DNA of 63,999 nt, filler included, from Candidatus Woesearchaeota archaeon (GCA_003650545.1; 3 parts of 3 records of this genome joined end to end with filler, not necessarily neighbours in it), one strand, 5' to 3'. Shown: positions 28,161-61,312, numbered from the whole stretch's first letter. The notes: generated by a model from the sequence alone, not told the origin. Numbers and translations: made by a program.

Positions 28161-28331
28161 TGGGCCCAGTGGGATTTTCATAGAAAAATGCCAGACTGCA
28201 TTCCCCATTCGAACCCACGACCTTTTCACCCAGATCCCTTCTAAGGAATGCTGATCGGTTAAGAGCCGAACGCTCTACTTACCCGCTAACCAACGAAGTT
28301 GCTGGCATGCGCCAGGCTGAGCTATGGGCCC
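28161..28331 (-). tRNA. tRNA-Lys(CUU) with three introns
   Basis: Acceptor GGGCCCA/TGGGCCC, D stem GCTC/GAGC, anticodon arm TTCGG-CTCTTAA-CCGAA, T arm GTGGG-TTCGAAT-CCCAC after removing about 28311-28279, 28254-28225 and 28207-28175; 75-nt product. Confidence 0.9.
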
Positions 28332-28634
28332 ATGGTTTTGTTCTCTTTGATATCATGGATTTATTCTTGATTTAAAAATCTTTTTATACTCTTTTAAAAT
28401 TTTTTAATACACTTTTATTCAAAATCTAGATATCTACAATTTTGCATATGAACTAACCTCACTATAAACCTAACTATAAACTTAATTATAAACTAACTAA
28501 ACTAATTATAAACCAACATTATAAACTAACATTAATAAAAAACAATAAAAAATATCCCATAAAACTAAGAATGCAGTACCCTAATATACCAAATCAGGTA
28601 ACAAAAGTAGCAAATACAAACTTACATTTTCAAT

Positions 28635-30854: not shown

Positions 30855-30954
30855 NNNNNNNNNNNNNNNNNNNNNNNNNNNNNNNNNNNNNNNNNNNNTT
30901 AATTAATTAANNNNNNNNNNNNNNNNNNNNNNNNNNNNNNNNNNNNNNNNNNNN
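30855..30954. other. Assembly gap with TTAATTAATTAA linker
   Basis: N runs flanking a stop-in-all-frames linker. Confidence 0.98.
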
Positions 30955-36200: not shown

Positions 36201-36986
36201 ATGATAGCAATCTTTGAGGCTTTTGTATTAGCAATTGTTCAAGGCATTACAGAATGGTTGCCTGTTAGTAGTTCTGGACATCTTGCTTTAATTGAGAATA
36301 TATTTGGTATAGCCGATCCTGTATTTTATTCTGTTATGTTACATTTTGCAACGTTGTTTGTTGTGATTGTTGTGTTTTGGAAGGATGTCGTCAGAATCCT
36401 TAAAAGCTATTTTATTGGTGACACAGAATATCAAAAGTTAGGATTACTAGTGCTATTATCTGTCTTGCCCACTGCTGCGATTGGATTCGCTTTTATGAAG
36501 TACTTTGAGGCTGCCTATACAAACTATTTCACTATTGCAGCCGCGTTTTTTGTAACAGCAATATTATTAATGTTCTTCAGATTTGCAACTGAGAAGAGAA
36601 AGAAGGTTTGTGTTGTTGATGCACTAGTTGTTGGTGTTGCACAGGGAATTGCGATTATACCTGGTATATCAAGGAGTGGTGCAACAATTGCTACTGGAAG
36701 GTTTCTTGGTTTAAGGAGAGAGATAGCTGCTAAGTTTGCATTCTTAATGTTTATACCTGCAATCATTGGGGCAACAGGCTATCAGATGATATACAGGTCA
36801 GAAGAAATCGCCTATGCTACTACTGATTGGGGTGCATTGATCCTTGCTATGATTACAGCAGCTGTTGTTGGATATTTTGCATTGAAGTTTGTGTTAAGAA
36901 CGATAAAAAGGAATGCATTTCATAAGTTTAGTTACTATTGTTTTGCGGTTGGTGTTGTTAGTTTGATTTTGGGATTAGCTTTATAG
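36201..36986 (+). CDS. uppP: Undecaprenyl-diphosphate phosphatase
   Basis: QGITEWLPVSSSGH and PGISRSGATI. Confidence 0.95.
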   Translation: MIAIFEAFVLAIVQGITEWLPVSSSGHLALIENIFGIADPVFYSVMLHFATLFVVIVVFWKDVVRILKSYFIGDTEYQKLGLLVLLSVLPTAAIGFAFMKYFEAAYTNYFTIAAAFFVTAILLMFFRFATEKRKKVCVVDALVVGVAQGIAIIPGISRSGATIATGRFLGLRREIAAKFAFLMFIPAIIGATGYQMIYRSEEIAYATTDWGALILAMITAAVVGYFALKFVLRTIKRNAFHKFSYYCFAVGVVSLILGLAL

Positions 36987-39436
36987 CTTAGAAAGAGTTT
37001 ACCCCACGGCGTTTTGTTAAACTTTCCTATTCTTAGTTTGCCGACTGTAGGATACCAAAGTTTGTCGTGGTAAAACTCTGAAGCAAATATAAACATCCTG
37101 AATAAAGGTGTATGAAAGAATAAATGTTCTGCAAATCTTAATCTTTTTCTGAATAATTGATCAAAGAATATAACAGGACTTTTGAAGGTTTTGAATCTTA
37201 AGTTGATATTTTTTATTGAATCTCCTACAACGTCTATCTGCCTCAGATCGGCCGTTCCAAGACCTTGGTCGTGTGCTAGTTTTAAGAACTTTATCTTCAT
37301 TGGATCAAAACCCATTAGCTTGGCTGCAACAGCATCAATTGCAGCCTGATCTTCGCTAGCAAGGATTAGATTTGCTGTTACAGGTAACATTGTCCTTGGG
37401 CCTTTGCCATTGCCTGCTACAGTGCCATCCATCACTGCAAATAAGTTTGGATGAATGTCTTTCTGTATTTTTAGTATGTCAACTAGAACTTCGTGGATCA
37501 TTTTATGGCAATGGTGTCTGCGTGTTGTGACAAGGCCTCCGAAAGCATTTTTGATCGCACCTGTCATTACAGTGTGGCCGTGTGTGTTATGAAGTAGTAT
37601 CCCATTTCCAATAAAATTATGTGATTTTTCGAGCACAGTAATATCGTATAAATCTGTTTTCTTTTCAATATTTGTAATTTCTACGATATCCTCCCAAATT
37701 AATGCATTATCTAGTAAAAAATCTAAATAACTAAAATCATCAGGGTTATAATTTCCTAATAAGATTAGCTTATAACGTAAGGCATTAACTAAGTACCTAA
37801 AACTTTTTCGTGGAATCCGTTTTTTATAATATATTAAACTCTGCCAAAATCTATTTCCCCGGGCTCTTCTATCAAAAGGATTTGAAAGTTTGGGAAGTTT
37901 TTCAAAAAAATGTACAATCTTTTCTTTATGTATAGGTATAAAATCATAGTTAGTGGTAAAATCATTCTTTCTTTTGTTGATATTCTCCAATAATTCATGA
38001 AGTTTCTTTTTATTTTTTGATTTTCTAAATTCAGGCTTTAATTTATTCAACTTAATAATATCGTCAGCATAAATTGATAAAGTAAAAACGTCCTTGTATT
38101 TGTGTTGCTTTCTTTTTTTTGAAAATGCAACGACACCTATTCTTTGGAACAGCAGTTGCATCAGTTTGGCATCATTTTCATTTGTCGTAGTTATATTTAT
38201 CTGTCGCGATTTTGGTATGATAGATCCGTCACAATCTATATATGTAACTAAAAAATTTACGATTTCTTCTTTGGTACACGAATATATAAAACTAGGGATT
38301 TGCTTTTTATTATTCAACAAGACACCCAATTGTTTTAAAACATCCACTAATTGTTTGGAATGTACAAATAATTCATGTTTATTGCTTCTTTTGGATCTAA
38401 ATTTTAAACCAAAGATATCTTTAGTTATTCTTTTAAAATCGCTTAACAGTTCATCAGAATAATTTGTAAAGTGAATTGCATAGTTCTTATTTTTTCTATT
38501 CTCTATGCTTCCTTCACTAACAATATATGCAATCCACCGACATAATTCAGGTGAACTTCTTTTTGGATATGTTATTTTATTATGGGATTTTTTAATTTTA
38601 ATCTTTTTTAAATTTATTTTAATTCTCCTTTCTCTAAAAGACGAGATTTCTCTTAAAACGGCAATCTTATGTTGCTTCTTATTTAATTTCTTCGCTTTAA
38701 CCCAACCTTCCTGTGTTAAAAACGGGTGTTCTGCTGAAACAATTACTTCTTTTCCTGTCTTAAGCCTTATCTTATAGATTTTACCTTTAGATTTATTTCG
38801 CCAAACTATTGCCTTTACATATTTCGTTCTTTTCTGTTTAGTTCCTACAAATGTTAAAACGCGATTTTTGAATGATTTCTTTTCTTCCTTTTTTTCTAAA
38901 TTAGGTTTACCAAACATATCTTTGATTCTTATTAAACCTCTACTAGTTGAAATCAAAGTGTCCCCATGTACACATTTCATTGTTGGCAGATGCATGATGT
39001 TTTTACCTATAAACATCTCTGGAATTTTGTATGTGTCACCAAAGATGTGATGTAGTGCTATGGAATCGTTTAATTTGTAGTTGATCCATTTGACTGTTGT
39101 TAGGTCTATTAGTTTTAGATCTGCTTTGCTTAGGATTGGTTTCCATCTATTACCCCTTTCGCCTTTTCTGACGTCTGTCACAACGGTTCTGTTTTCGACT
39201 GGATAGAGTTTCTTAAATTTGTCTTTTTTAAGCTTGTTTAAAACTCCTGCGAGTTGCCACGGTTGTGTTGAGCATGCAGGGAAGTATAAACTCCAGGATA
39301 GATTAAGTTTAAGGATAAGGTCTTTTGAGGGCTTTAGTTTATGTTTATATTTTGCTAAGTCTAAAAGTTTAGAATAGTCTTCTAATACTGTTTTAGGTGT
39401 TGTTCTTAAAACTGCAACTTTACTTGCTTTAGGCAT
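36935..39436 (-). CDS. DUF362 family protein interrupted by an intein
   Basis: LKLNLSW, LPTMK/THGHT..TGAIKNAFGG, GKGPR, DQAAIDAVAAKLMG; extein 370 aa. Confidence 0.88.
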   Translation of the reverse strand: MPKASKVAVLRTTPKTVLEDYSKLLDLAKYKHKLKPSKDLILKLNLSWSLYFPACSTQPWQLAGVLNKLKKDKFKKLYPVENRTVVTDVRKGERGNRWKPILSKADLKLIDLTTVKWINYKLNDSIALHHIFGDTYKIPEMFIGKNIMHLPTMKCVHGDTLISTSRGLIRIKDMFGKPNLEKKEEKKSFKNRVLTFVGTKQKRTKYVKAIVWRNKSKGKIYKIRLKTGKEVIVSAEHPFLTQEGWVKAKKLNKKQHKIAVLREISSFRERRIKINLKKIKIKKSHNKITYPKRSSPELCRWIAYIVSEGSIENRKNKNYAIHFTNYSDELLSDFKRITKDIFGLKFRSKRSNKHELFVHSKQLVDVLKQLGVLLNNKKQIPSFIYSCTKEEIVNFLVTYIDCDGSIIPKSRQINITTTNENDAKLMQLLFQRIGVVAFSKKRKQHKYKDVFTLSIYADDIIKLNKLKPEFRKSKNKKKLHELLENINKRKNDFTTNYDFIPIHKEKIVHFFEKLPKLSNPFDRRARGNRFWQSLIYYKKRIPRKSFRYLVNALRYKLILLGNYNPDDFSYLDFLLDNALIWEDIVEITNIEKKTDLYDITVLEKSHNFIGNGILLHNTHGHTVMTGAIKNAFGGLVTTRRHHCHKMIHEVLVDILKIQKDIHPNLFAVMDGTVAGNGKGPRTMLPVTANLILASEDQAAIDAVAAKLMGFDPMKIKFLKLAHDQGLGTADLRQIDVVGDSIKNINLRFKTFKSPVIFFDQLFRKRLRFAEHLFFHTPLFRMFIFASEFYHDKLWYPTVGKLRIGKFNKTPWGKLFLSYKANPKIKLTTPTAKQ
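37586..38974 (-). mobile_element. Intein (463 aa) with LAGLIDADG homing endonuclease
   Basis: Starts CVHGDT, block B VSAEHPF, IAYIVSEG and TYIDCDGS, ends LLHN before Thr. Confidence 0.93.
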
Positions 39437-40622: not shown

Positions 40623-40636
40623 GAAAGATTTATAAA
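40623..40636 (+). promoter_or_regulatory. BRE-TATA promoter of 5S rRNA
   Basis: GAAAGATTTATAAA about 25 bp upstream of the 5S start; the same motif recurs upstream of other genes. Confidence 0.75.
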
Positions 40637-40659
40637 TGGTTCTTTCTTCAAGAGTTATA

Positions 40660-40771
40660 GGACGGTCATAGGGGCGTGGTTCCACCCGATCCCATTTCGA
40701 ACTCGGAAGTTAAGCACGCCTCCGTTCCATGTTGTACTGTACTTATGTACGGGAAGCATGGAAAGCTGTCC
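40660..40771 (+). rRNA. rrf: 5S rRNA (unlinked)
   Basis: GGACGGT/GCTGTCC terminal helix, CACCCGATCCCATTTCGAACTCGGAAGTTAAG core, T-run after the end. Confidence 0.95.
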
Positions 40772-40860
40772 GCTTTTTTTTCGGTCTTTTAATTTTCATA
40801 AGTTTTATATACTTGCTTATCTACATGTTTTATATTGACAACAGAAAAAAGTTTCTTATA

Positions 40861-48421: not shown

Positions 48422-48703
48422 TTTAAGCCTTAGTTCTGCTGAATTTTTGTTGTTTGACTAAATAGCAGGTTTGTGAAGGATGTATATATAGCTATTTGTT
48501 ATGCCTAAAATGTATCTAAAATGTTAATCTAAAATAATGCTTTTACACAGAGTTGAGATGTTACAAAAGTGAGATTAGGCACCATTAGATTAGTTGTTTT
48601 TTAAATATAGCTTATCGTCGATAAATTGTAAATCTTTAAGTCGTGTTAAAATACATTTAAATAGCGTTTGGTTTAGTAGCCACTCTTAAGTGGTCAAAAA
48701 AAC

Positions 48704-48717
48704 GAAAAGTTTATATA
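48704..48717 (+). promoter_or_regulatory. BRE-TATA promoter upstream of the structured transcript
   Basis: GAAAAGTTTATATA matches the recurring promoter motif. Confidence 0.6.
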
Positions 48718-49001
48718 ATATTTAAGTTAACATTATTACTATTATCAAAGGTTGTTATTTGGGTTTTTACATCTTTCCCTAATCGAAAAGAGGGACTGTG
48801 AGTAAAAACTCATGCTATGTTTCCAGAAGGAAACAAATCTTGCAAATTTGCTACGAGAAAATCGAGCAAATAATAAAGAAACTTGAATAGGAATAACATA
48901 TCTAGATGGAAAACCATTAGTTTTAGGTAGTTTAAAGTTTTCTTAATAACCCTCTTGCTAGGGTTTTATATATTTGTATTTCTATAAAAAGGAGGCAAAT
49001 T

Positions 49002-49472
49002 ATGAAGAATTTTTTTGTCATTATGTTGTGTTCGGTAATTATTAACCAGAAGGTTAATTACTCTATGATTCCAGAGGAGGTACGCGTAAATCGCGTACCG
49101 GTTATATCATGGCAGGAAAGTCTGGGTGGCGAGATAGGCACAGCCTATTCTTGCGAGGACAAAGAAGAATGGTTCTGGACACTAGATGAAAATGTTGTGG
49201 TGGACTGTCTAAATAGTTCTACAATGGTCCACCTCTCCAGGACTTCTGCTACTGCTACTCTGGGGGTAAGCAGCAATGAGTTTGGCATCCTCTGGATAAA
49301 GTCTGATGAAGAAGTTGCTTTTATTAGGCTGGGGGAAAAAGAAGTAAAAGTGAAGAATTCTCCCTGCCTGTTTTCCTCCATTCACAAAGTTGTAGATGAT
49401 CTAGAAAGAGGAGGGACTGTGAGTGAAAACTCATGGTCATTACTCCTCGGAGCATCTCTAAGTCATTTTTAA
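49002..49472 (+). CDS. Hypothetical protein encoded within strongly base-paired sequence
   Basis: 156 codons, AGGAGG SD at 48990, hydrophobic N-terminus; unusually G+C-rich and self-complementary. Confidence 0.5.
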   Translation: MKNFFVIMLCSVIINQKVNYSMIPEEVRVNRVPVISWQESLGGEIGTAYSCEDKEEWFWTLDENVVVDCLNSSTMVHLSRTSATATLGVSSNEFGILWIKSDEEVAFIRLGEKEVKVKNSPCLFSSIHKVVDDLERGGTVSENSWSLLLGASLSHF

Positions 49473-49481
49473 AATCAAATT

Positions 49482-49542
49482 AGCAGGGCATAACTTGGTG
49501 ACGCTTCATAGAAGCGGCAGGGTTCGATTCCCTGGCCTGCTA
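49482..49542 (+). ncRNA. tRNA-like element lacking canonical D and anticodon arms
   Basis: AGCAGG/CCTGCT acceptor-like stem, CAGGG-TTCGATT-CCCTG T arm, CGCTTC-ATA-GAAGCG hairpin. Confidence 0.6.
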
Positions 49543-49680
49543 TAGTTGAAATACTTTGGCAAGAGTAACTAACAATAACTAACAACTTTTTATAAATTGT
49601 CTGTTTTTAAATAATCGAGAAGTCATAAAACTTTTTTAATAATTTTTTTCTATATCGAAATTTCAAAAAGAACATTAAAA

Positions 49681-51600
49681 TCACTTCATCTTCAAATAAA
49701 CACCAGCAGCATGCTTCTCGTATTCGCTGATAGCTTTCTCTGCCTTGGCCTTCTTGCCTGCCTTTGTCCTGCCATCCATCTTCTTAGTATTTTCTTTCTT
49801 TATCTCTTTTTGTGCTTTCTTTAACTGTTCCTTTTCTTTTTTTGTGACCTTCTTCATTCTTCTTATCCTGATGGCGCGCCTGATCATTAATTTCCCTAGG
49901 TAGTTAGCACGAATAAGTTTATGCGCTATTATTACCAAAATCAAGGAAACTGTTGCATATATTACTAACAGTAAAACGTCATTTAACATGTTCTTTAATG
50001 GTGTTGGAGGTATGAAAATGATAGATTTCTTTAATAGCTCACTACCAATTATAAACGGGTTGTAAGATTTAACAAAATTGTATAAATACAAAGGCATAGA
50101 CTCAATTGGAATTAATAGGTCTGACAATAAGAATAACAAACTGCCAACAGATATTGCTGCTAGCACAGAGGTTTCCTCTGATTTAAACAAGTAACCAATA
50201 AGCATTCCTAGAAAGATAAACAAAGATGTAGTAACGAATAAAATAAGACAGATGTTTATCCAATTATTCAGAAAATTAAGCTTGAATACTGTAACAGAAA
50301 CGCCTAAAATTATGGCTAGTTGCAAAGCTATGATTATAAGGCTAGTTAAATAAGTTGCTATTATAAAAGTTATGTCGCGAGTTGGAACAATGTAGTTTCG
50401 GAAATGTGCTGGTGATTTCTTTTCTATCATCACCAATGTTGTTGCTAATAGGATTCCTATGAACATAACAACAAGTATTATTATAGAGGGCATCTTCTTT
50501 TTTAGATAGGTCTCCTTAGCGGCAATCTGATTTACTTTTGTGGTGAACGGACTAACAATAACATCTGCTCTGGTAATTTTTATTTGACCTATAGACTCTT
50601 TTAAGTTGGTTAATTTTTTCTGAATGTCTGATATCTTGTTGTTTATTGAGCTAATGCTATCAATTGTCTTGTTTAAACTGGATATTGCTTCTGTTCTTGT
50701 ATTTTCAATGTTATTAAATTGCGATTGCACAACATTTAATCCTGTATTTAGGTTATTAACCAGCCGAGAGAGAGAACTTCCATTATTGTTAGAGAGTTCT
50801 GTCTGAAGAACTAGAACTACTGTTCTCGTGTCATTTAGATCGTCTAATAAGGCTTGCTCTTCTGATGCATTAAGACAGAAATCATCAACATCATCTTCAA
50901 GTTGCTCTATCATATCTAAAGTGTCTTCAACGACACTGTCAGCAGCTTTTGTCAAGGATTGAGATTTCTCTTTTATCTGTGAAAGGTTGTATGCGTTTGG
51001 ATCAAATTCTGTGTTGATTGATTTTAGATTTGTAATTACCTTTCCTAGGTCTACTTTAAGTTGGTTATTTGACTCTATTAAGGATGATAACTGTGCGTTT
51101 TGTGCATCTATTGTAGATTTTGTTTCTTCTAGCTTTGATAATAGTATATTTGTTAAGGATATACTTTGTTGACTTGACTTATTCATAATTGTCTTAGATA
51201 TAAGATTACCAATGGTATCAACTAAAATTAAATTAGAAGAGTCTACATGATAGATTAGCTCAACTTTTCTCTCGTTGCTTACTTCTAATGTTGCAGGTAA
51301 TTCCACACAAGCATGTATATCATTGTCGCGGATTTTCTCAATACAATCTTCTATATCTGTAAATTTAACTATATTTACATTTTCTGCTCTAAATGCCTCT
51401 AAGAATTCTTCTGTTTGGTTTGAGTATGACTCTGAATAAATTCCAATCTTAATGCTAAATGGATTGGCATTGTTAAAAGCGAGGCCCATAAGAAAGATGA
51501 TTAATAACGGCCCAAAAATAACTATTAGAGCAGATGTTTTTGAACGTAATAAAATCTTAAAGTTCTTTTTTATTATTTTAAACAGATTAATCATTTTCAA
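49681..51600 (-). CDS. ABC-2 type transporter permease with large extracellular coiled coil
   Basis: N-terminal TM, long helical loop, C-terminal TM bundle with LLIPIESMP. Confidence 0.88.
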   Translation of the reverse strand: MKMINLFKIIKKNFKILLRSKTSALIVIFGPLLIIFLMGLAFNNANPFSIKIGIYSESYSNQTEEFLEAFRAENVNIVKFTDIEDCIEKIRDNDIHACVELPATLEVSNERKVELIYHVDSSNLILVDTIGNLISKTIMNKSSQQSISLTNILLSKLEETKSTIDAQNAQLSSLIESNNQLKVDLGKVITNLKSINTEFDPNAYNLSQIKEKSQSLTKAADSVVEDTLDMIEQLEDDVDDFCLNASEEQALLDDLNDTRTVVLVLQTELSNNNGSSLSRLVNNLNTGLNVVQSQFNNIENTRTEAISSLNKTIDSISSINNKISDIQKKLTNLKESIGQIKITRADVIVSPFTTKVNQIAAKETYLKKKMPSIIILVVMFIGILLATTLVMIEKKSPAHFRNYIVPTRDITFIIATYLTSLIIIALQLAIILGVSVTVFKLNFLNNWINICLILFVTTSLFIFLGMLIGYLFKSEETSVLAAISVGSLLFLLSDLLIPIESMPLYLYNFVKSYNPFIIGSELLKKSIIFIPPTPLKNMLNDVLLLVIYATVSLILVIIAHKLIRANYLGKLMIRRAIRIRRMKKVTKKEKEQLKKAQKEIKKENTKKMDGRTKAGKKAKAEKAISEYEKHAAGVYLKMK

Positions 51601-52614: not shown

Positions 52615-55600
52615 CTATTGTTTTTCTGCAACAGACACTGCTTTTCTTATCTCATCAAGAGCGTCGATATTAACAGAGATAGAATCTATTCCTTGCTTTA
52701 CCAAGAAACGGGCCATTTCAGGGCGAGAGCCAGCTTGGCCACAAATAGAGGTTTGAACACCGTGCTTCTTGCATGTTTTGATAACTAGAGCTATCTCGCT
52801 TAGGATAGCTGGATGGAGCTCATTGAATAGTTTTTGGATGCGTTCATTGTTCCTGTCTACTCCTAGAGTTAACTGAGTTAGATCATTTGTGCCAAAAGAA
52901 ATAAAGCTTATACCTTCATTGCAGATATCTTCAATTATCCAGCACGAAGCTGGAGTTTCTATCATGACACCAAAATCGACATCTTTAATAGGCTCTAAAC
53001 CACAAGAACGCATTATGGCCTTTGCTTTCTTGAGTTCTTCTGTTGTAATAAGAAATGGTATCATCACGCCAACATTTTTAAGGCCTACATCATGCAGCCG
53101 TTTTATTGCAGTGAACTCTGCCTTTAGAATTTCTGGTTGATCTAATGCGCGCCTAATAGCATGCCAGCCAATCATCGGGTCAGTTTCTTTGGGTTCATTT
53201 TCAGCGCCTTTAAGGTTACGATACTCGTCTGTACGCATATCACTAGTTCTTACCCAGACTGGTTTATCCTTAAATGCACGGGCTATTTTTCCTATTCCAT
53301 CTACTAGCATCTGGATGTAGGGTTCAAAGTTACCGTCTTTAAGATAGTAAGCGGGGTGAACGCCTGATTGGGCAATCATTATTTCTAAACGCACTAGGCC
53401 AACACCATCTGCTCCTGTAGCAGCAGCGCGTTCTGCAAATTTTGGAAGGTCCATTATTAACTTAATTTTTGTTTTTGTTCTTGATGGTTCTGCTTCTTTA
53501 ATCTCAACTTTTTTTTCTTCGATTACCTTTCCTTTGTAGATTTTTCCATGGGTTGCATCAACTGTTACTATTTCGCCCTCTTTTAACAGCTTGGTGGCTT
53601 TTACTGTGCCAACAATACACGGAGTGCCCATCTCTCTAGAAACTATTGCTGCATGGCAGTTAGCTACCCATACAGGAGTTAAATTTCTAGTAAAGACTAC
53701 AAAATTATGATTATCCTCAACTGTTAAATTATAAACTTCTGTTTCAGGCAGAGAATCTACTTGGCTTACCCTTTTCATTCTAAGAGGAGAACTAGCTATT
53801 TGACGTAATTTTACACCATCTTTGTATTTAGCTAATTTGCTGATACGCTCAAGGATTTTATTATTAATTAACAAATTATTATCCACATATGGTCTTATTT
53901 TGCCTTTCACATTTACGTCATTTATTATATCAGAGAGTAATTGCTTCGCTGAAAACAACTTGACACCAATAGCCTTAGTCTTATTAGTTGGCTTAAATCG
54001 CTGACTGTGTTTTAACACTTTTTCTATTTTCTCTGTTATTTGGATATTTTTACATTTTAGTCTATTATCATTTATCACAGGCTGTATACCTAACCGTAAA
54101 CACCCTAAAACTATGGCTTGAATCAAAATTTCGTCTGAGGTATAAATATGAACTCTATTTCCGTGTTTTTTGTGAAAACTGCCGTCTCCGTCTATTACTC
54201 CTGATAAAAATGCACAAATATTCTCTTCATCAGTCTCCATTATCCAAGGTATTAAATTTTCATACTTTTCTAATAGAATCTGTGAAGGTGATTTCAAAGA
54301 ATAGGTGTAAGCGTTCGCAGCATTTGCAATGCTAGTAAATCTATGTCCCCTTATGATAGAAGTATTATTTCTAGTCCGAACTTTTAAATCATAATTGAAC
54401 AAATCCTTAAAATTTTTAACTACTTGGTTTATAAATTTTCTTTTTTGCTCTGTATTTTTCTGGACAAAAGCAATTCTACCACGACGTCTATTTAACTGAA
54501 TATGGCCATCTGTATAGATCGCTCCAATCAAATATGATAGTTTATTTTCTTTTTCATTTGATTTAACGATATCAGGTATTTTGTCGATAGTAGAGATAGC
54601 TAAATTTTTATCTAAAACTTCATTAATTGGCTTTTTACATAACATTCTATTTTCGAATAACATCATCTTATGATCCTGGGTTAAATCTAGGGTATTTGTA
54701 GAACTCCTACCTGTTTGGGACACTGAAATTCTTATGATTTGGGCTATGCGTTTATGTGAAGCAATAACATCTTTCCATTCTGGTTTTAAATGATTGTTGA
54801 GGGTAAGAACTTTAACCTCTTCATCTTTCTGTAGTGATTTGTAAATTTGGCTTATCTCTTTAATACCATTGGATGTTAGTACTTTTGTATAAGATGGAAA
54901 ACACGTTGCTCCTCCCTCATCAGTTATTATTGCAGCTGCTTTTTCCATTGCAGGAACCATGTCAGGCGTTGTCATCCTTGTAACCATTACATCACCTGGT
55001 TGAATCTTGCTCAATTCGCTAAGAGAATAGATGATTTTAATAGGACCTGTTGCTAGACCGCGGGATGCCACTTGACCTGTTAGAATAACTTCGCCCTTTA
55101 GCTCTTCCACTGCTTTTACTTCTTTTTTCAATGTTGTAACGGCCCTTGATTGTACGATATAGATGTTTCCCTTTTCAATTGCCCATTCAATATCCTGAGC
55201 CTTGTTATAGTGTTCTTCGATCTTGCAAGCGTATCTTGCAAGCTCTTTGATCTGTTTATTGTTGATCACTTGGCTGCTTTTGTCAGGATCTGTTATAGGA
55301 CGTTTCTCTGTCTTACCTGTTTCTGGATTACGAAAAAAACCCCATTCTTGTTCTCTTACTGTTATGTTTGTTATCTCATTTGTTTCTTTATTGACTTCGT
55401 AATGATCTGGGTTGACTGCACCAGAGACTATCGCTTCTCCTAGTCCATAAACTGCTTCCACAATGACTGTATTCGGATCGTTTGTAGCAGGATTCACAGA
55501 GAACATCACTCCTGACATATCGCTGTCTACCATTTTTTGAATAACAACGGCTATATAGACCTTAGAATGATCGAACTTATTTCTGACGCGATAATAGATA

Positions 55601-57684
55601 GCTCTTGCTGTAAATAAGGATGCCCAGCATGCTGAGACAGCCCTTATGAGTTGTTCCCTGCCGCGAACATTTAGAAATGTTGCTTGCTGGCCTGCAAAGC
55701 TTGCAGAATTGTGAGTAACTATACCTCCAACGCCTGCTGCAAAATTTTGAGATTCAGGTACAACAAAATCATATACCCACCCATCATAGTTTATTGGTTC
55801 TATTTTTTTTATTTTATCCCAAGTAACTGAGTCGTTAAAAATATCTAAATTTTTTGTCCCATATTTATTTAAAACAGATATAAGTTTATCTACACTATAG
55901 GTCTTACTTGCTACTAAACCTTTATTCCAGGGTGTTGATCCTTTTGTAAACTTTCCTTTCTCATCGTAATTAACATAATACAGTTTTCTTGATTTTTTAA
56001 CCTGATCTGAATAAAAAGCCTTTTTGCACTTGTGGCAGTAGTACCTCTCTCTTTCCCTATATCTGCTTGTTTGGTTTATCTTCATGTTACATGATGGGCA
56101 CAAGATAACTTCAACTTCTGTTTTAGGAAGATTCAACTCTATATCCTTTCTTATTTTTTTTGCTAATAGCTTTGATATCTTCCAAGAATTTTTAAATCTT
56201 GGATGTGTGTTCATTTCCTTATATTTATTAATCAACTTCTGGAGCCTCATAAGCTTAGATTTATTATTAAATCCAATTAATATTCCGAATTTCTTTGCTT
56301 GACTTAAAGGTATAACAATGTTGGTTTTGTTTTTAGCTAGGTAGAATTCTATGCCTAAAATCTCTAATAGTTTTACAATTCCTCCTATCAACATCTCTGA
56401 AGTAGAACAATATTCAATAGTCTGTTTAGAAACATAACCATCTCCGTCAAAGCATCCTCTTAAGAATTGCCCTATCAAATCTTTACTCCAACCGAAAATG
56501 AAGTTTGGCACTTCTTTTACTTTGCAAATCTTGCCTTTGCCTGTTATTTTATTATTGGGTTTACCTGCGATTTTATGTAAGAACCGTACAAAAGATTTGC
56601 AGTATATTCTTAATGTCCCCCTGTTTATATTTTGGGATTTATACAAGTTTAGACTAGCAAAAAATTCTATTATTCTTTGCATAACCTCTTTGCTGCTATT
56701 GGTTATTGTGATACAGTTATCTTTATATGTAGAACCTTCTGCAGCGTACACACCTAAGAAGTAAGCAAAACCAGAATCAACTGTTAATTCTGGAATAAGG
56801 CCATTTTGGATCTTCCAGTTGTTGTTTGGATTCTTTATTTTGATTAATCCGTCATCAAGAACTACATCATTTTCTGTTAAATAGTCTAGAAATGATAGTT
56901 TTTTTTGCTTTAATGATGATGGTAGAGGTAGCTTATTTACTACTGGGACTCTTTCGTTGCCTTTTAGCTCATTAACGGACGCAACTTCTCTCTGTTCAAG
57001 AGAAGTTTCGTCCAATACTATTAGTGTGTGATTAGGAGAAATCGTTATTTCTCTTCCAGTTTCGGTGATTAGTTTATACAGCTTGGTTTTGTTAGCTTTA
57101 TGTCTATAAATTTCCTTTACTTTGCTCCATTTGATTTTATTGTTACATAACGAAGGAATTAGTATGTTGTAATCATTTCCTTTACCTACTAAGTTATAAA
57201 CTTCTTTCATTTTTTTATATATTATATTGTTATCTATTTGCACTAATACATGTTCATCTTCAGATATACTGGGCAGATCCTCGGCTGTTGCTGATGATCT
57301 AACAGCTACAAACTCTTCCTTTTTGTTATCTAGCATCTCTTGCGGGTGTACATTATTGCCTAAAGAAAGGGCTTCATAGGCTTCTATTATTTCTGCCTTA
57401 AGCTCAGGGAGCATCTCTGTGTTTATGATTAAATCCTGGATCTCTTTGGCAATCTCCTGTAGTTTTGCTGTGTTTTGTGTATCAAGATTTTTTAATCTGT
57501 TTAGAATCTCATCCTTGATGTTTGTTTTTTCTATAAACTCTTTATAAGCTGAAGCTGTTACAACAAAGCCTGGGGGAATTGGTAAGCCAGCATTATACAT
57601 CTCGCCCAGGTTGGCGCCTTTTCCGCCAACTAAAGAGATGCTATCTTTAGAAAGTTCCTTAAACCATGCGATGTATTTCAACAA
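52615..57684 (-). CDS. ppsA: Phosphoenolpyruvate synthase with two inteins
   Basis: VGGKGANLGE, AVRSSATAEDLP/SASFAGQQ, GGAT/CHAAIVSRE, FGTNDLTQ, SICGQ; extein 753 aa. Confidence 0.95.
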   Translation of the reverse strand: MLKYIAWFKELSKDSISLVGGKGANLGEMYNAGLPIPPGFVVTASAYKEFIEKTNIKDEILNRLKNLDTQNTAKLQEIAKEIQDLIINTEMLPELKAEIIEAYEALSLGNNVHPQEMLDNKKEEFVAVRSSATAEDLPSISEDEHVLVQIDNNIIYKKMKEVYNLVGKGNDYNILIPSLCNNKIKWSKVKEIYRHKANKTKLYKLITETGREITISPNHTLIVLDETSLEQREVASVNELKGNERVPVVNKLPLPSSLKQKKLSFLDYLTENDVVLDDGLIKIKNPNNNWKIQNGLIPELTVDSGFAYFLGVYAAEGSTYKDNCITITNSSKEVMQRIIEFFASLNLYKSQNINRGTLRIYCKSFVRFLHKIAGKPNNKITGKGKICKVKEVPNFIFGWSKDLIGQFLRGCFDGDGYVSKQTIEYCSTSEMLIGGIVKLLEILGIEFYLAKNKTNIVIPLSQAKKFGILIGFNNKSKLMRLQKLINKYKEMNTHPRFKNSWKISKLLAKKIRKDIELNLPKTEVEVILCPSCNMKINQTSRYRERERYYCHKCKKAFYSDQVKKSRKLYYVNYDEKGKFTKGSTPWNKGLVASKTYSVDKLISVLNKYGTKNLDIFNDSVTWDKIKKIEPINYDGWVYDFVVPESQNFAAGVGGIVTHNSASFAGQQATFLNVRGREQLIRAVSACWASLFTARAIYYRVRNKFDHSKVYIAVVIQKMVDSDMSGVMFSVNPATNDPNTVIVEAVYGLGEAIVSGAVNPDHYEVNKETNEITNITVREQEWGFFRNPETGKTEKRPITDPDKSSQVINNKQIKELARYACKIEEHYNKAQDIEWAIEKGNIYIVQSRAVTTLKKEVKAVEELKGEVILTGQVASRGLATGPIKIIYSLSELSKIQPGDVMVTRMTTPDMVPAMEKAAAIITDEGGATCFPSYTKVLTSNGIKEISQIYKSLQKDEEVKVLTLNNHLKPEWKDVIASHKRIAQIIRISVSQTGRSSTNTLDLTQDHKMMLFENRMLCKKPINEVLDKNLAISTIDKIPDIVKSNEKENKLSYLIGAIYTDGHIQLNRRRGRIAFVQKNTEQKRKFINQVVKNFKDLFNYDLKVRTRNNTSIIRGHRFTSIANAANAYTYSLKSPSQILLEKYENLIPWIMETDEENICAFLSGVIDGDGSFHKKHGNRVHIYTSDEILIQAIVLGCLRLGIQPVINDNRLKCKNIQITEKIEKVLKHSQRFKPTNKTKAIGVKLFSAKQLLSDIINDVNVKGKIRPYVDNNLLINNKILERISKLAKYKDGVKLRQIASSPLRMKRVSQVDSLPETEVYNLTVEDNHNFVVFTRNLTPVWVANCHAAIVSREMGTPCIVGTVKATKLLKEGEIVTVDATHGKIYKGKVIEEKKVEIKEAEPSRTKTKIKLIMDLPKFAERAAATGADGVGLVRLEIMIAQSGVHPAYYLKDGNFEPYIQMLVDGIGKIARAFKDKPVWVRTSDMRTDEYRNLKGAENEPKETDPMIGWHAIRRALDQPEILKAEFTAIKRLHDVGLKNVGVMIPFLITTEELKKAKAIMRSCGLEPIKDVDFGVMIETPASCWIIEDICNEGISFISFGTNDLTQLTLGVDRNNERIQKLFNELHPAILSEIALVIKTCKKHGVQTSICGQAGSRPEMARFLVKQGIDSISVNIDALDEIRKAVSVAEKQ
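53659..54903 (-). mobile_element. Intein 2 of ppsA (415 aa, LAGLIDADG)
   Basis: Starts CFPSYT, TQDH, IGAIYTDG and LSGVIDGDGS, ends WVAN before Cys-His of the phospho-His loop. Confidence 0.92.
55708..57270 (-). mobile_element. Intein 1 of ppsA (521 aa, Ser1, LAGLIDADG, Zn-ribbon insert)
   Basis: Starts SISEDE, SPNH block B, LGVYAAEGS and LRGCFDGDG, CPSC..CHKC, ends VTHN before Ser. Confidence 0.9.
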
Positions 57685-61212: not shown

Positions 61213-61312
61213 NNNNNNNNNNNNNNNNNNNNNNNNNNNNNNNNNNNNNNNNNNNNTTAATTAATTAANNNNNNNNNNNNNNNNNNNNNNNNNNNNNNNN
61301 NNNNNNNNNNNN
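61213..61312. other. Assembly gap with TTAATTAATTAA linker
   Basis: N runs flanking the linker. Confidence 0.98.

What the first reader, a model, noticed from the sequence alone, without database searches (positions are those of the whole stretch)
49482..49542. Minimal tRNA mimic at the 3' end of the structured transcript
Seen: 61 nt, 10 bp after the ORF stop, with a perfect T arm (CAGGG-TTCGATT-CCCTG), an acceptor-like stem starting A1-U72 with one G-G mismatch at its base, a short TGG-containing segment in place of the D arm, and a 6-bp hairpin with a 3-nt loop in place of an anticodon arm. Known: A1-U72 marks archaeal initiator and Gln tRNAs; elbow mimics such as mascRNA, bacterial Y RNA and viral TLS direct RNase P/Z processing or CCA addition. 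Inference: a processing or stability signal for the upstream RNA, or a decoy tRNA.
Basis: partly seen in the sequence, partly recalled or inferred. Interest (0 to 1): 0.72.

Follow-up and report, generated by a model that had tools for sequence, protein, structure and literature searches.

The report
Shrunken tRNA look-alike after orphan gene
A 61-base relic of a methionine-type tRNA, unable to read codons but still folded like a tRNA's top half, sits just after an orphan gene in a tiny DPANN-type archaeon, where it may serve as a cutting signal for tRNA-processing enzymes or may simply be a dead gene.

Summary
Window 49482-49542 (+) folds into a 6-bp acceptor-like stem with a G-G mismatch, a perfect T arm with a canonical T loop, a 6-bp/3-nt hairpin and a 13-nt GG-containing linker. 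By my simulations chance gives this about 1-3 times per 10,000 such windows.

It is not a tRNA by ARAGORN or Rfam and cannot display an anticodon in a 7-nt loop. It looks tRNA(CAU)-derived. Its 3' half occurs in 108 public genome loci, 81 of them tRNA(CAU) genes, and it aligns colinearly with those tRNAs.

It has no well-placed promoter of its own. It lies 9 nt after the stop of an orphan 156-codon ORF inside a GC-rich, unusually structured island, and oligo-T runs follow it.

Best reading (about 0.4): a tRNA-derived "t-element" cut by RNase P and tRNase Z that sets the upstream RNA's 3' end. Main rival (about 0.3): an inert internally deleted tRNA relic.

No relatives could be retrieved, so conservation and expression are untested. 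The upstream "structured transcript" carries both a coding-like and a structured-RNA signal, and its nature is unresolved.

The parts
49482..49542 (+). 61-nt tRNA-like mini-cloverleaf (whole element, 57% GC)
   Evidence: Read. Fold. Weak sub-threshold Rfam hits to tRNA-Sec (17.0 bits, gathering 47) and mascRNA-menRNA (16.2 bits, gathering 42.5). No ARAGORN call.
49482..49488 (+). Acceptor-like 5' strand AGCAGGG (A1...G7)
   Evidence: Pairs with 49536-49541 (6 Watson-Crick pairs); G7 faces G66. Pair probability 0.94 in isolation. The same heptamer starts 5 of the 91 ARAGORN-called tRNAs that carry the T-loop motif, and GGCAGGG starts 54.
49489..49501 (+). 13-nt linker CATAACTTGGTGA replacing the D arm (contains GG and a CATAA motif)
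   Evidence: Only a weak 3-bp stem is predicted (probability 0.43). MAFFT aligns TAACTTGGT to U8-A9, the D-stem 5' strand and the D-loop GG of tRNA(CAU), followed by an 11-column gap.
49502..49516 (+). Hairpin CGCTTC-ATA-GAAGCG (6 bp, 3-nt loop); alternatively a 3-bp stem with the 9-nt loop TTCATAGAA
   Evidence: probability 0.99 alone and 0.83-0.94 in the four longer contexts tested. It aligns to the anticodon stem and loop of tRNA(CAU); loop heptamers TTCATAA and CTCATAA occur in 8 and 23 of the 43 aligned tRNAs.
49518..49534 (+). T arm CAGGG-TTCGATT-CCCTG
   Evidence: GGTTCGATTCC occurs exactly once in the window. Probability at least 0.90 in every context tested.
49535..49542 (+). Acceptor-like 3' strand GCCTGCT plus discriminator A; no encoded CCA (TAG follows)
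   Evidence: The 3'-half pattern recovers 81 tRNA(CAU) genes among 108 loci.
49473..49481 (+). 9-nt A/T-rich spacer between the stop codon and A1 (putative RNase P leader)
   Evidence: The role is inferred.
49002..49472 (+). Orphan 156-codon ORF, inside a GC-rich (about 45%) structured island at about 49050-49480
   Evidence: ORF. No homologue and no Pfam family. Open frame P = 0.0016. Fold z -3.8 against -1.5 to +1.3 for 14 coding controls and -4.16 for 49040-49560. GC profile.
48965..48972 (+). TATA-like box TTTATATA, the candidate promoter of the ORF plus element transcript
   Evidence: The 5S rRNA gene has TTTATAAA with its 5' edge at -29. The same spacing would put the start near 48994. 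This is an inference.
49587..49608 (+). Two T5 runs (49587-49591 and 49604-49608), candidate archaeal terminators 45-66 nt after the element
   Evidence: The 5S gene ends in a T8 run. Terminator function is inferred.

Best explanation
The element is a tRNA(CAU)-derived, non-decoding mini-cloverleaf. It has kept the parts that tRNA end-processing enzymes recognise: a 12-layer acceptor/T-arm stack, a canonical T loop, a GG-containing linker that could mimic the D-loop side of the elbow, an unpaired discriminator A and a non-CCA trailer. It is transcribed as the 3' part of the upstream unit (orphan ORF or structured RNA), probably from the TATA-like box at 48965, with termination at the T5 runs after 49587. 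RNase P would cut between 49481 and 49482, which leaves the upstream RNA with a 9-nt tail after its stop codon. tRNase Z would cut after A49542, and a 61-nt RNA that can receive CCA would be released. In other words it acts as a 't-element' or tRNA-punctuation signal. Shown: the structure, its non-randomness, its tRNA(CAU) ancestry, its inability to act as a decoder, and its position relative to the ORF, promoter-like and terminator-like motifs. Inferred: co-transcription, every cleavage step and any benefit to the cell.
For: The three helices are exact and improbable by chance. 17 of the 18 stacked positions are Watson-Crick, with no G-U. The element is 57% GC, while the window averages 33.7% and the flank at 49550-49699 is 19-20%. 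I read that as maintenance rather than decay. The element cannot be a decoder. No tRNA is called, Rfam scores are below threshold, and CAT sits two bases out of register for a 7-nt loop. So if it is maintained, it is maintained for something other than translation. It has no TATA at the spacing seen for the 5S gene: TTTTTAAAA lies at -16 to -8, against a TATA edge at -29 for 5S. T5 runs follow it. tRNA-like t-elements processed by tRNase Z and RNase P are documented in an archaeon, Haloferax volcanii (passages of PMC4326828 and PMC7714728). The genome adds CCA after transcription: its tRNA-Lys gene has no encoded CCA. No integrase or transposase domain was found in the 25 ORFs of the contig that I scanned.
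Against: There is no conservation evidence. The genome's nearest relatives are distant (best non-self ABC-permease hit 39% identity). There are no expression data. In predicted folds of the whole transcript the acceptor stem is out-competed: probability 0.14 in a 541-nt context and 0.00 in a 606-nt context. Enforcing the element costs 8.1 kcal/mol out of -197.4. The element alone folds only moderately better than its shuffles (z -2.1). Whether this organism has RNase P or tRNase Z is unknown from the window. A recent internally deleted pseudogene would look the same.
Confidence: 0.4

Rival explanations
1. It is an inert relic: a former tRNA(CAU) gene (Met or Ile2 type) that lost its D arm and part of its anticodon and variable region through internal deletions. 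It is no longer used and has not yet decayed further.
For: The element is colinear with 43 tRNA(CAU) sequences, with gaps of 11 and 4 columns and small insertions. Its 3' half is typical of tRNA(CAU): 81 of 108 loci. Many of these tRNAs carry an internal AGCAG(G/T)GG that repeats the 5' acceptor strand, which is a ready substrate for slippage deletion of the D arm (internal pseudo-acceptors at gaps 19 and 24). No detector accepts the element as a tRNA. No conservation or expression is known.
Against: Several separate indels would be needed, yet all 17 remaining pairs are Watson-Crick and GC is 57% in a 34% GC genome with 19-20% GC flanks. The hairpin is re-zipped to a perfect 6 bp rather than degraded. 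Streamlined DPANN genomes are generally thought to keep little junk; this is recalled, not tested.
Confidence: 0.3
2. It is a stand-alone functional small RNA: a tRNA mimic that acts in trans, for example as a decoy or ligand for an enzyme or factor that recognises the acceptor/T-arm of Met-type tRNAs. Its position after the ORF would be incidental.
For: It has an initiator-like A1-U72 plus A73 end and a CAT-containing hairpin loop. Similar about 43-nt acceptor plus T-arm minihelices, each with a 7:66 mismatch and a TGGT-containing linker, occur in tandem on a small ParA-bearing Clostridia contig (L008). That suggests such minis may be a wider phenomenon.
Against: It has no own promoter at the expected spacing. 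No partner gene is evident among the neighbours. The L008 likeness is architectural only, and the L008 elements have no matches in the phage or plasmid collections.
Confidence: 0.1
3. It is the 3'-terminal structural domain of a larger, roughly 550-nt non-coding RNA, so the ORF is spurious. It would protect the 3' end or dock a protein and would not be cleaved off.
For: The island folds exceptionally well: z -4.16, with 0 of 100 shuffles as good, and z -3.8 against -1.5 to +1.3 for 14 coding controls. The ORF has no homologue among 5.8 billion clustered proteins or 1.84 billion cluster representatives. Its structure models have low confidence: mean pLDDT 40.8 on a 0-100 scale for AlphaFold2 and 0.40 on a 0-1 scale for the Atlas model. 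A helix in the island, TGGCAGGA/TTCTGCTA at 49110-17/49244-51, resembles the element's acceptor.
Against: The 156-codon open frame has P = 0.0016 under composition-matched randomisation; the other two forward frames have 15 and 10 stops. The in-frame codon score (-0.01) is far above the off-frame scores (-0.93, -0.68), though at the bottom of the real-gene range. AAGGAGG lies 6 nt before the ATG. No Rfam family matches the island even at E up to 10.
Confidence: 0.1
4. It is an attachment-site remnant of a mobile element that integrated into a tRNA(CAU) gene. The GC-rich ORF would be leftover cargo.
For: The island is about 11 GC points above the genome. The ORF is an orphan. A 25-nt direct repeat (24 of 25 identical) brackets most of the unit at 48790-48814 and 49411-49435. 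The 3'-half pattern is found almost only in bacterial genomes, with 1 of 108 loci archaeal, although bacteria also dominate that collection.
Against: None of the 25 ORFs of the 30-kb contig that I scanned has an integrase, transposase or phage domain. The element keeps both acceptor strands, unlike a 3'-fragment att duplicate. No second copy of any 11-mer or longer from the element's stems occurs in the window. The 25-nt repeat is unrelated to the tRNA-like sequence.
Confidence: 0.07

Closest known systems
Archaeal t-elements (tRNA-like structures of Haloferax volcanii, e.g. upstream of 5S rRNA)
   Same: Both are tRNA-like folds in an archaeon that are not tRNAs and lie directly beside another RNA. 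Passages of PMC4326828 state that t-elements are substrates of RNase P and tRNase Z and define the neighbour's end. PMC7714728 states that tRNase Z matures the 5S 5' end.
   Different: The lineage differs (DPANN-like, not haloarchaeal). This element lies at the 3' side of an ORF or structured RNA, not 5' of 5S; the 5S gene here stands alone with its own TATA. No sequence comparison was possible, because the primary papers (Hoelzle 2008, 2012) were seen only as references and PMC2327364 is not held. Processing is untested here.
mascRNA/menRNA at the 3' ends of MALAT1 and NEAT1
   Same: A small tRNA-like cloverleaf at the 3' end of a long transcript, cut by RNase P and released (PMC8457004, search listing and start of abstract only). 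Rfam's model gives a weak full-length alignment at 49487-49537.
   Different: The score is 16.2 bits against a gathering score of 42.5, E 3.4, so it is not a member. That family is mammalian and nuclear. No upstream triple-helix element was looked for.
Plant mitochondrial t-elements / tRNA punctuation of mRNAs
   Same: tRNA-like structures next to protein-coding transcripts that contribute to mRNA 5' and 3' end formation (PMC1920247, title and start of abstract).
   Different: Those are organellar and processed by a different enzyme set. Here a single case is known and no mapped transcript ends exist.
D-armless (truncated) mitochondrial tRNAs
   Same: Similar length, with the D arm replaced by a short linker and the acceptor and T arm kept (recalled knowledge, not from a call).
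   Different: Those still show an anticodon in a 7-nt loop. Here the CAT is two bases out of register. ARAGORN's metazoan-mitochondrial mode finds only a model on the complementary strand.
tRNA(CAU) genes (Met/Ile2 type) and their pseudogenes
   Same: The acceptor heptamer, the T loop and the 3' end are shared, and the alignment is colinear.
   Different: The element is 61 nt rather than about 73-77 nt, has no D stem, a 1-nt variable region and no usable anticodon loop, and fails all tRNA detectors.

Membership tests
Canonical tRNA (ARAGORN; Rfam tRNA clan CL00001) | Accepted by tRNA detectors or covariance models at their thresholds | tested here: not met
   ARAGORN finds 0 genes in the window and 0 with introns of 0-600 nt allowed. 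The best clan hit is tRNA-Sec at 17.0 bits against a gathering score of 47, E 2.5.
Canonical tRNA (ARAGORN; Rfam tRNA clan CL00001) | 7-bp acceptor stem and a 5-bp T stem with a T-loop of the form TTCRANN closed by G53-C61 | tested here: met
   6 Watson-Crick pairs plus G-G in the acceptor; a perfect T arm.
Canonical tRNA (ARAGORN; Rfam tRNA clan CL00001) | D arm (3-4 bp stem, with U8, A14 and A21) and an anticodon arm with a 7-nt loop and U33 | tested here: not met
   The 13-nt linker has only a weak 3-bp stem (probability 0.43). The hairpin has a 3-nt or 9-nt loop, and a 7-nt loop centred on CAT leaves the stem unpaired (read).
Intron-containing or split archaeal tRNA | Removal of an intervening segment restores a detectable tRNA | tested here: not met
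   0 of 8700 single-intron constructs, built from 11 candidate 5' acceptor strands in 48926-49482 joined to 3' parts, were called by ARAGORN. The positive control worked: the genome's triple-intron tRNA-Lys is called once spliced in silico. Multi-intron and trans-spliced layouts were not searched exhaustively.
mascRNA-menRNA (RF01684) | Covariance-model score at or above the gathering score | tested here: not met
   16.2 bits against 42.5, E 3.4.
t-element (tRNA-like processing signal) | Acceptor/T-arm stack with an unpaired discriminator, directly abutting another RNA | tested here: met
   It lies 9 nt after the stop codon, and TAG rather than CCA follows the discriminator.
t-element (tRNA-like processing signal) | Cleavage by RNase P at the 5' end and by tRNase Z at the 3' end, in vivo or in vitro | not testable with these tools
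   There are no RNA data or enzymology here, and the presence of the enzymes in this genome is unknown.
tRNA-derived att remnant of an integrated element | Integrase or mobile-element genes nearby, and a duplicated tRNA fragment as a direct repeat | tested here: not met
   No such Pfam domain in the 25 ORFs of 30955-61212 that I scanned. No repeat of the element's stems in the window. The rest of the genome was not available.
tmRNA | tRNA-like domain plus a tag reading frame, detected by ARAGORN or Rfam | tested here: not met
RNase P RNA (considered for the upstream island) | Match to any Rfam RNase P model; a P4 pairing with the conserved flanking motifs | tested here: not met
   No RNase P hit at E up to 10 in 1001-nt and 451-nt searches. 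The motif GGAAAGTCTGGG at 49115-49126 resembles the conserved CR-I region as I recall it, but I found no convincing 3' partner with the expected flanking motif (reading).

The most novel reading that the evidence does not exclude
A DPANN-type archaeon has turned a tRNA(CAU) gene into a 61-nt non-decoding mini-cloverleaf that punctuates a messenger or structured RNA. RNase P and tRNase Z would cut it out, fixing the upstream RNA's 3' end 9 nt after its stop codon and releasing a CCA-tailed tRNA-like small RNA. That would be an archaeal counterpart of the MALAT1/mascRNA arrangement. It may belong to a wider, undescribed class of acceptor/T-arm minihelices with a 7:66 mismatch and a TGG-bearing linker, also seen in tandem on a Clostridia plasmid-like contig (L008).
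Probability: 0.25. Interest if true: 0.6.

Novelty: new variant of a known kind. Interest (0 to 1): 0.4.

Why it matters
If the element is processed, tRNA punctuation of non-tRNA transcripts would extend beyond haloarchaea, organelles and mammalian lncRNAs to the reduced DPANN archaea. It would also show how a tRNA gene can be shrunk to the minimal enzyme-recognition module and kept for RNA end formation. In addition it would give a natural minimal substrate for archaeal RNase P, tRNase Z and CCA-adding enzymes. If it is only a relic, it documents internal-deletion decay of a tRNA gene in a genome whose working tRNAs are heavily interrupted by introns. In that case it is of minor interest.

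Tried and rejected
1. Real tRNA: rejected. At a lowered ARAGORN threshold the window gives 135 calls, which is noise and was not used. ARAGORN's mitochondrial mode gives only a complementary-strand model.

2. Single-intron tRNA using upstream 5' exons: 0 of 8700 constructs were called.

3. A Met anticodon arm elsewhere in the window that could belong to a split gene: 18 weak candidates, none GC-rich or next to tRNA-like features by my reading.

4. The upstream island as RNase P RNA, SRP RNA, rRNA fragment, H/ACA or C/D RNA: no Rfam hit better than E 0.49 and nothing near a gathering score. Manual RNase P modelling was unconvincing.

5. Homologues of the ORF: only the window's own protein was found among 5.8 billion clustered sequences and 1.84 billion representatives. 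There was no Pfam family, the AlphaFold2 single-sequence model had pLDDT 40.8, and the ESM Atlas gave no usable feature hit and TM by query of at most 0.40. The models are too poor to use.

6. Similar DNA in phages or plasmids: none for 49000-49560 and none for the L008 minihelices.

7. Relatives of the element: the single genome-contig scan returned 108 loci. None was this genome or a DPANN archaeon, and only L008 showed comparable minis.

8. Paralogues in the window: only the 25-nt repeat.

9. Shine-Dalgarno evidence: 3 of 5 AAGGAGG sites precede ORFs of at least 60 codons, but only 5 of 45 GGAGG sites do, so this is weak.

Full report
**Setting**

The window has 33.7% GC. It is a string of at least three contigs joined by N spacers at 30855-30954 and 61213-61312. 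The finding lies on the middle contig, 30955-61212, which is 30,258 nt; the same length is listed for the contig carrying the window's own proteins.

The genes around it are ordinary archaeal housekeeping genes. They include glycosyltransferases, BacA, NFACT, an AsnC-type regulator, a Fap7-like AAA_18 kinase, an ABC-2 transporter pair, a PEP synthase with two inteins, PCMT, PfkB and Nop5.

The ABC permease next to the finding has its best non-self hit at 39% identity. The named hits are Candidatus Woesearchaeota, Nanoarchaeia and Pacearchaeota. The organism is therefore a DPANN-type archaeon without close sequenced relatives.

**Observation**

- acceptor strands AGCAGGG at 49482-88 and GCCTGCT at 49535-41, with six Watson-Crick pairs and a G-G at position 7:66
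- discriminator A at 49542
- linker CATAACTTGGTGA at 49489-49501
- hairpin CGCTTC-ATA-GAAGCG at 49502-16
- one G at 49517
- T arm CAGGG-TTCGATT-CCCTG at 49518-34

Nine bases separate the TAA stop (49470-72) from A1.

RNAfold gives these three helices as the centroid (MFE -24.1 kcal/mol; z -2.12; 8 of 200 shuffles as good). Pair probabilities are 0.92-0.99 when the element is folded alone or with about 20 nt of flank.

GGTTCGATTCC occurs exactly once in the window. A T-arm motif arises 0.23 times per random 64 kb. Given one, a 6-bp Watson-Crick acceptor plus a 6-bp inner hairpin arises with probability 0.0005-0.0013. The whole arrangement is therefore expected about 1-3 times in 10,000 windows. 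That product is mine.

**What it is not**

ARAGORN finds no tRNA or tmRNA in the window, with or without introns. Rfam at gathering thresholds finds only a 5S rRNA at 40658-40774. In E-value mode the element gives only sub-threshold hits: tRNA-Sec at 17.0 bits (gathering 47) and mascRNA-menRNA at 16.2 bits (gathering 42.5).

These detectors also miss a genuine tRNA of this assembly. At 28162-28332 (-) there is a tRNA-Lys(CUU) with three introns. ARAGORN recognises it once the three segments are removed in silico. I therefore tested whether the element is part of an interrupted gene. None of 8700 single-intron constructs, joining 11 candidate upstream acceptor strands to its 3' part, was called a tRNA. 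No convincing Met anticodon arm lies elsewhere in the window.

At 61 nt the element is too short to hold a tRNA. The CAT in the hairpin is two bases out of register for a 7-nt loop. It cannot decode.

**Where it comes from**

It returned 108 loci. ARAGORN of them tRNA-Met(CAT), 7 Glu(CTC), 1 Val and 1 Cys; 18 have no tRNA call. Among the 91 called tRNAs that carry the T-loop motif, 54 start GGCAGGG and 5 start AGCAGGG.

MAFFT aligns the element colinearly with 43 unique tRNA(CAU) sequences:
- identical acceptor
- a 2-nt insertion
- TAACTTGGT against U8-A9, the D-stem 5' strand and the D-loop GG
- an 11-column gap where the D-stem 3' strand should be
- GACGCTTCATAGA against the anticodon stem and loop (CTCATAA in 23 and TTCATAA in 8 of the 43)
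- a 4-column gap, then the T arm

A second parse is possible. In it the first CATAA is the anticodon remnant, TTGGT the variable loop and the hairpin an insertion, as in the Rfam tRNA-Sec alignment that treats the hairpin as a variable arm.

Many of these tRNAs contain an internal AGCAG(G/T)GG that repeats the 5' acceptor strand. Slippage between the two copies would delete the D arm. That is a plausible origin, but it is an inference.

The shared 3' half was imposed by the search. The shared 5' heptamer and anticodon-loop motif were not.

Only 1 of the 108 loci is archaeal. Neither this genome nor any DPANN genome was hit. Conservation could therefore not be examined.

**Surroundings**

Upstream lies a roughly 500-nt island of about 45% GC that gives two conflicting signals.

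As RNA, it folds far better than chance:
- z -4.16 for 49040-49560, with 0 of 100 shuffles as good
- z -3.8 for 49050-49480, against -1.5 to +1.3 for 14 coding windows of the same length

As a gene, it holds a 156-codon open frame:
- that length is reached in only 0.16% of composition-matched random sequences, and the other two forward frames have 15 and 10 stops
- AAGGAGG lies 6 nt before the ATG
- the in-frame codon score (-0.01) is well above the off-frame scores, but at the bottom of the real-gene range

The protein is an orphan. It has no hit other than itself among 5.8 billion clustered sequences or 1.84 billion representatives and no Pfam family. Its structure models are poor. No Rfam family fits the island.

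I leave it as "orphan ORF in an unusually structured, GC-rich transcript". A spurious ORF in a non-coding RNA is a live alternative.

A TATA-like TTTATATA at 48965-72 would start transcription near 48994, if the spacing seen at the 5S gene (TATA edge at -29) holds. The element has only TTTTTAAAA at -16 to -8, which is too close to serve it. Two T5 runs follow at 49587-91 and 49604-08.

The convergent ABC permease gene ends at 49681. No integrase, transposase or phage domain occurs in the 25 ORFs of the contig that I scanned.

**Mechanism**

The parts that survive are those that, as I recall from the literature, RNase P, tRNase Z and the CCA-adding enzyme need: a 7+5-layer acceptor/T stack, the T loop, an unpaired discriminator and a trailer that is not CCA. 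The parts needed only for decoding are gone.

All 17 remaining pairs are Watson-Crick. The element is 57% GC, next to flanks of 19-20% GC.

I therefore favour, at about 0.4, a tRNA-derived t-element. It would be co-transcribed with the upstream unit, cut at 49481/49482 and after 49542, and so set the upstream RNA's 3' end.

Archaeal precedent exists. In Haloferax volcanii, tRNA-like t-elements are processed by tRNase Z and RNase P and define the 5S rRNA 5' end (passages of PMC4326828 and PMC7714728).

Against this reading:
- there are no conservation or expression data
- whole-transcript folds disfavour the acceptor stem (probability 0.14 to 0.00; 8.1 kcal/mol penalty), although long-range predictions of this kind are unreliable
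- a young internally deleted pseudogene would look identical

That relic reading is the main rival, at about 0.3. A trans-acting mimic, a non-cleaved 3' domain of a long non-coding RNA, and an att remnant are minor rivals.

**Comparison and novelty**

The element works most like t-elements, mascRNA or organellar tRNA punctuation. It is a member of none by sequence. The mascRNA model was tested and not met. For t-elements the defining feature, cleavage, is not testable here.

It is tRNA(CAU)-derived but fails the tRNA definition. I rate it a new variant of a known kind, and of moderate interest (0.4) because it is a single unconserved, unexpressed example.

Supplements of the cited papers were not consulted. 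Hoelzle et al. 2008 and 2012 were seen only as reference-list entries; the 2008 paper is not held.

Noticed in passing
window 28162-28332 (-): tRNA-Lys(CUU) gene interrupted by three putative introns (28279-28312 in the D loop, 28227-28255 after the anticodon stem, 28175-28207 in the T loop). ARAGORN and Rfam miss it. It is called tRNA-Lys(ctt) once the three segments are removed in silico. It lies on a different contig of the window than the finding.
   Followed up: yes
window 30855-30954 and 61213-61312: Paired 44-N runs with 12 bases between them. The window is a concatenation of at least three contigs. The middle one (30955-61212) is 30,258 nt, matching the contig length listed for the window's own proteins.
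   Followed up: partly
window 48790-48814 and 49411-49435 (+): A 25-nt direct repeat (24 of 25 identical; blastn-short E 7e-6 within the window). It contains a small hairpin (TGAGT-RAAA-ACTCA). One copy is in the AT-rich, ORF-free 580-nt region upstream of the promoter and the other is in the 3' part of the orphan ORF. Its meaning is unknown.
   Followed up: partly
L008 1817-1859 and 1727-1768 (-), Clostridia MAG contig of 5984 nt: Two tandem 42-43-nt acceptor plus T-arm minihelices, about 50 nt apart. Each has a mismatch at 7:66 and a TGGT-containing 10-12-nt linker. The first has the same AGCAGGG...CCTGCTA ends as the finding. The contig carries a ParA-like ATPase. There is no tRNA call, no Rfam family for the minihelices, and no match in the phage or plasmid collections.
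   Followed up: partly
window 49115-49126 (+): GGAAAGTCTGGG resembles the conserved CR-I/P4 motif of RNase P RNA as I recall it. No Rfam RNase P model matches the island at E up to 10, and no convincing P4 partner was found.
   Followed up: yes
window 49110-49117 / 49244-49251 (+): The predicted helix TGGCAGGA/TTCTGCTA inside the GC-rich island resembles the element's acceptor strands (6 of 8 bases each). It could compete for pairing, or it could be coincidence.
   Followed up: no
window 36935-39436 (-) and 52615-57684 (-): Intein-bearing genes: a DUF362 protein with one intein plus a LAGLIDADG domain, and a PEP synthase/PPDK-like gene with two inteins carrying homing-endonuclease domains.
   Followed up: no
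window 40629-40790 (+): A stand-alone 5S rRNA gene (40658-40774) with TTTATAAA 22 nt upstream of its 5' end (box edge at -29) and a T8 run right after its 3' end. It was used here as the promoter and terminator yardstick.
   Followed up: partly
window 48948-48965 (+): A terminator-like hairpin (AACCCT-CTTGCT-AGGGTT) followed by T-rich sequence, immediately upstream of the TATA-like box. A separate small transcript from the 48460-48970 ORF-free region is possible.
   Followed up: no
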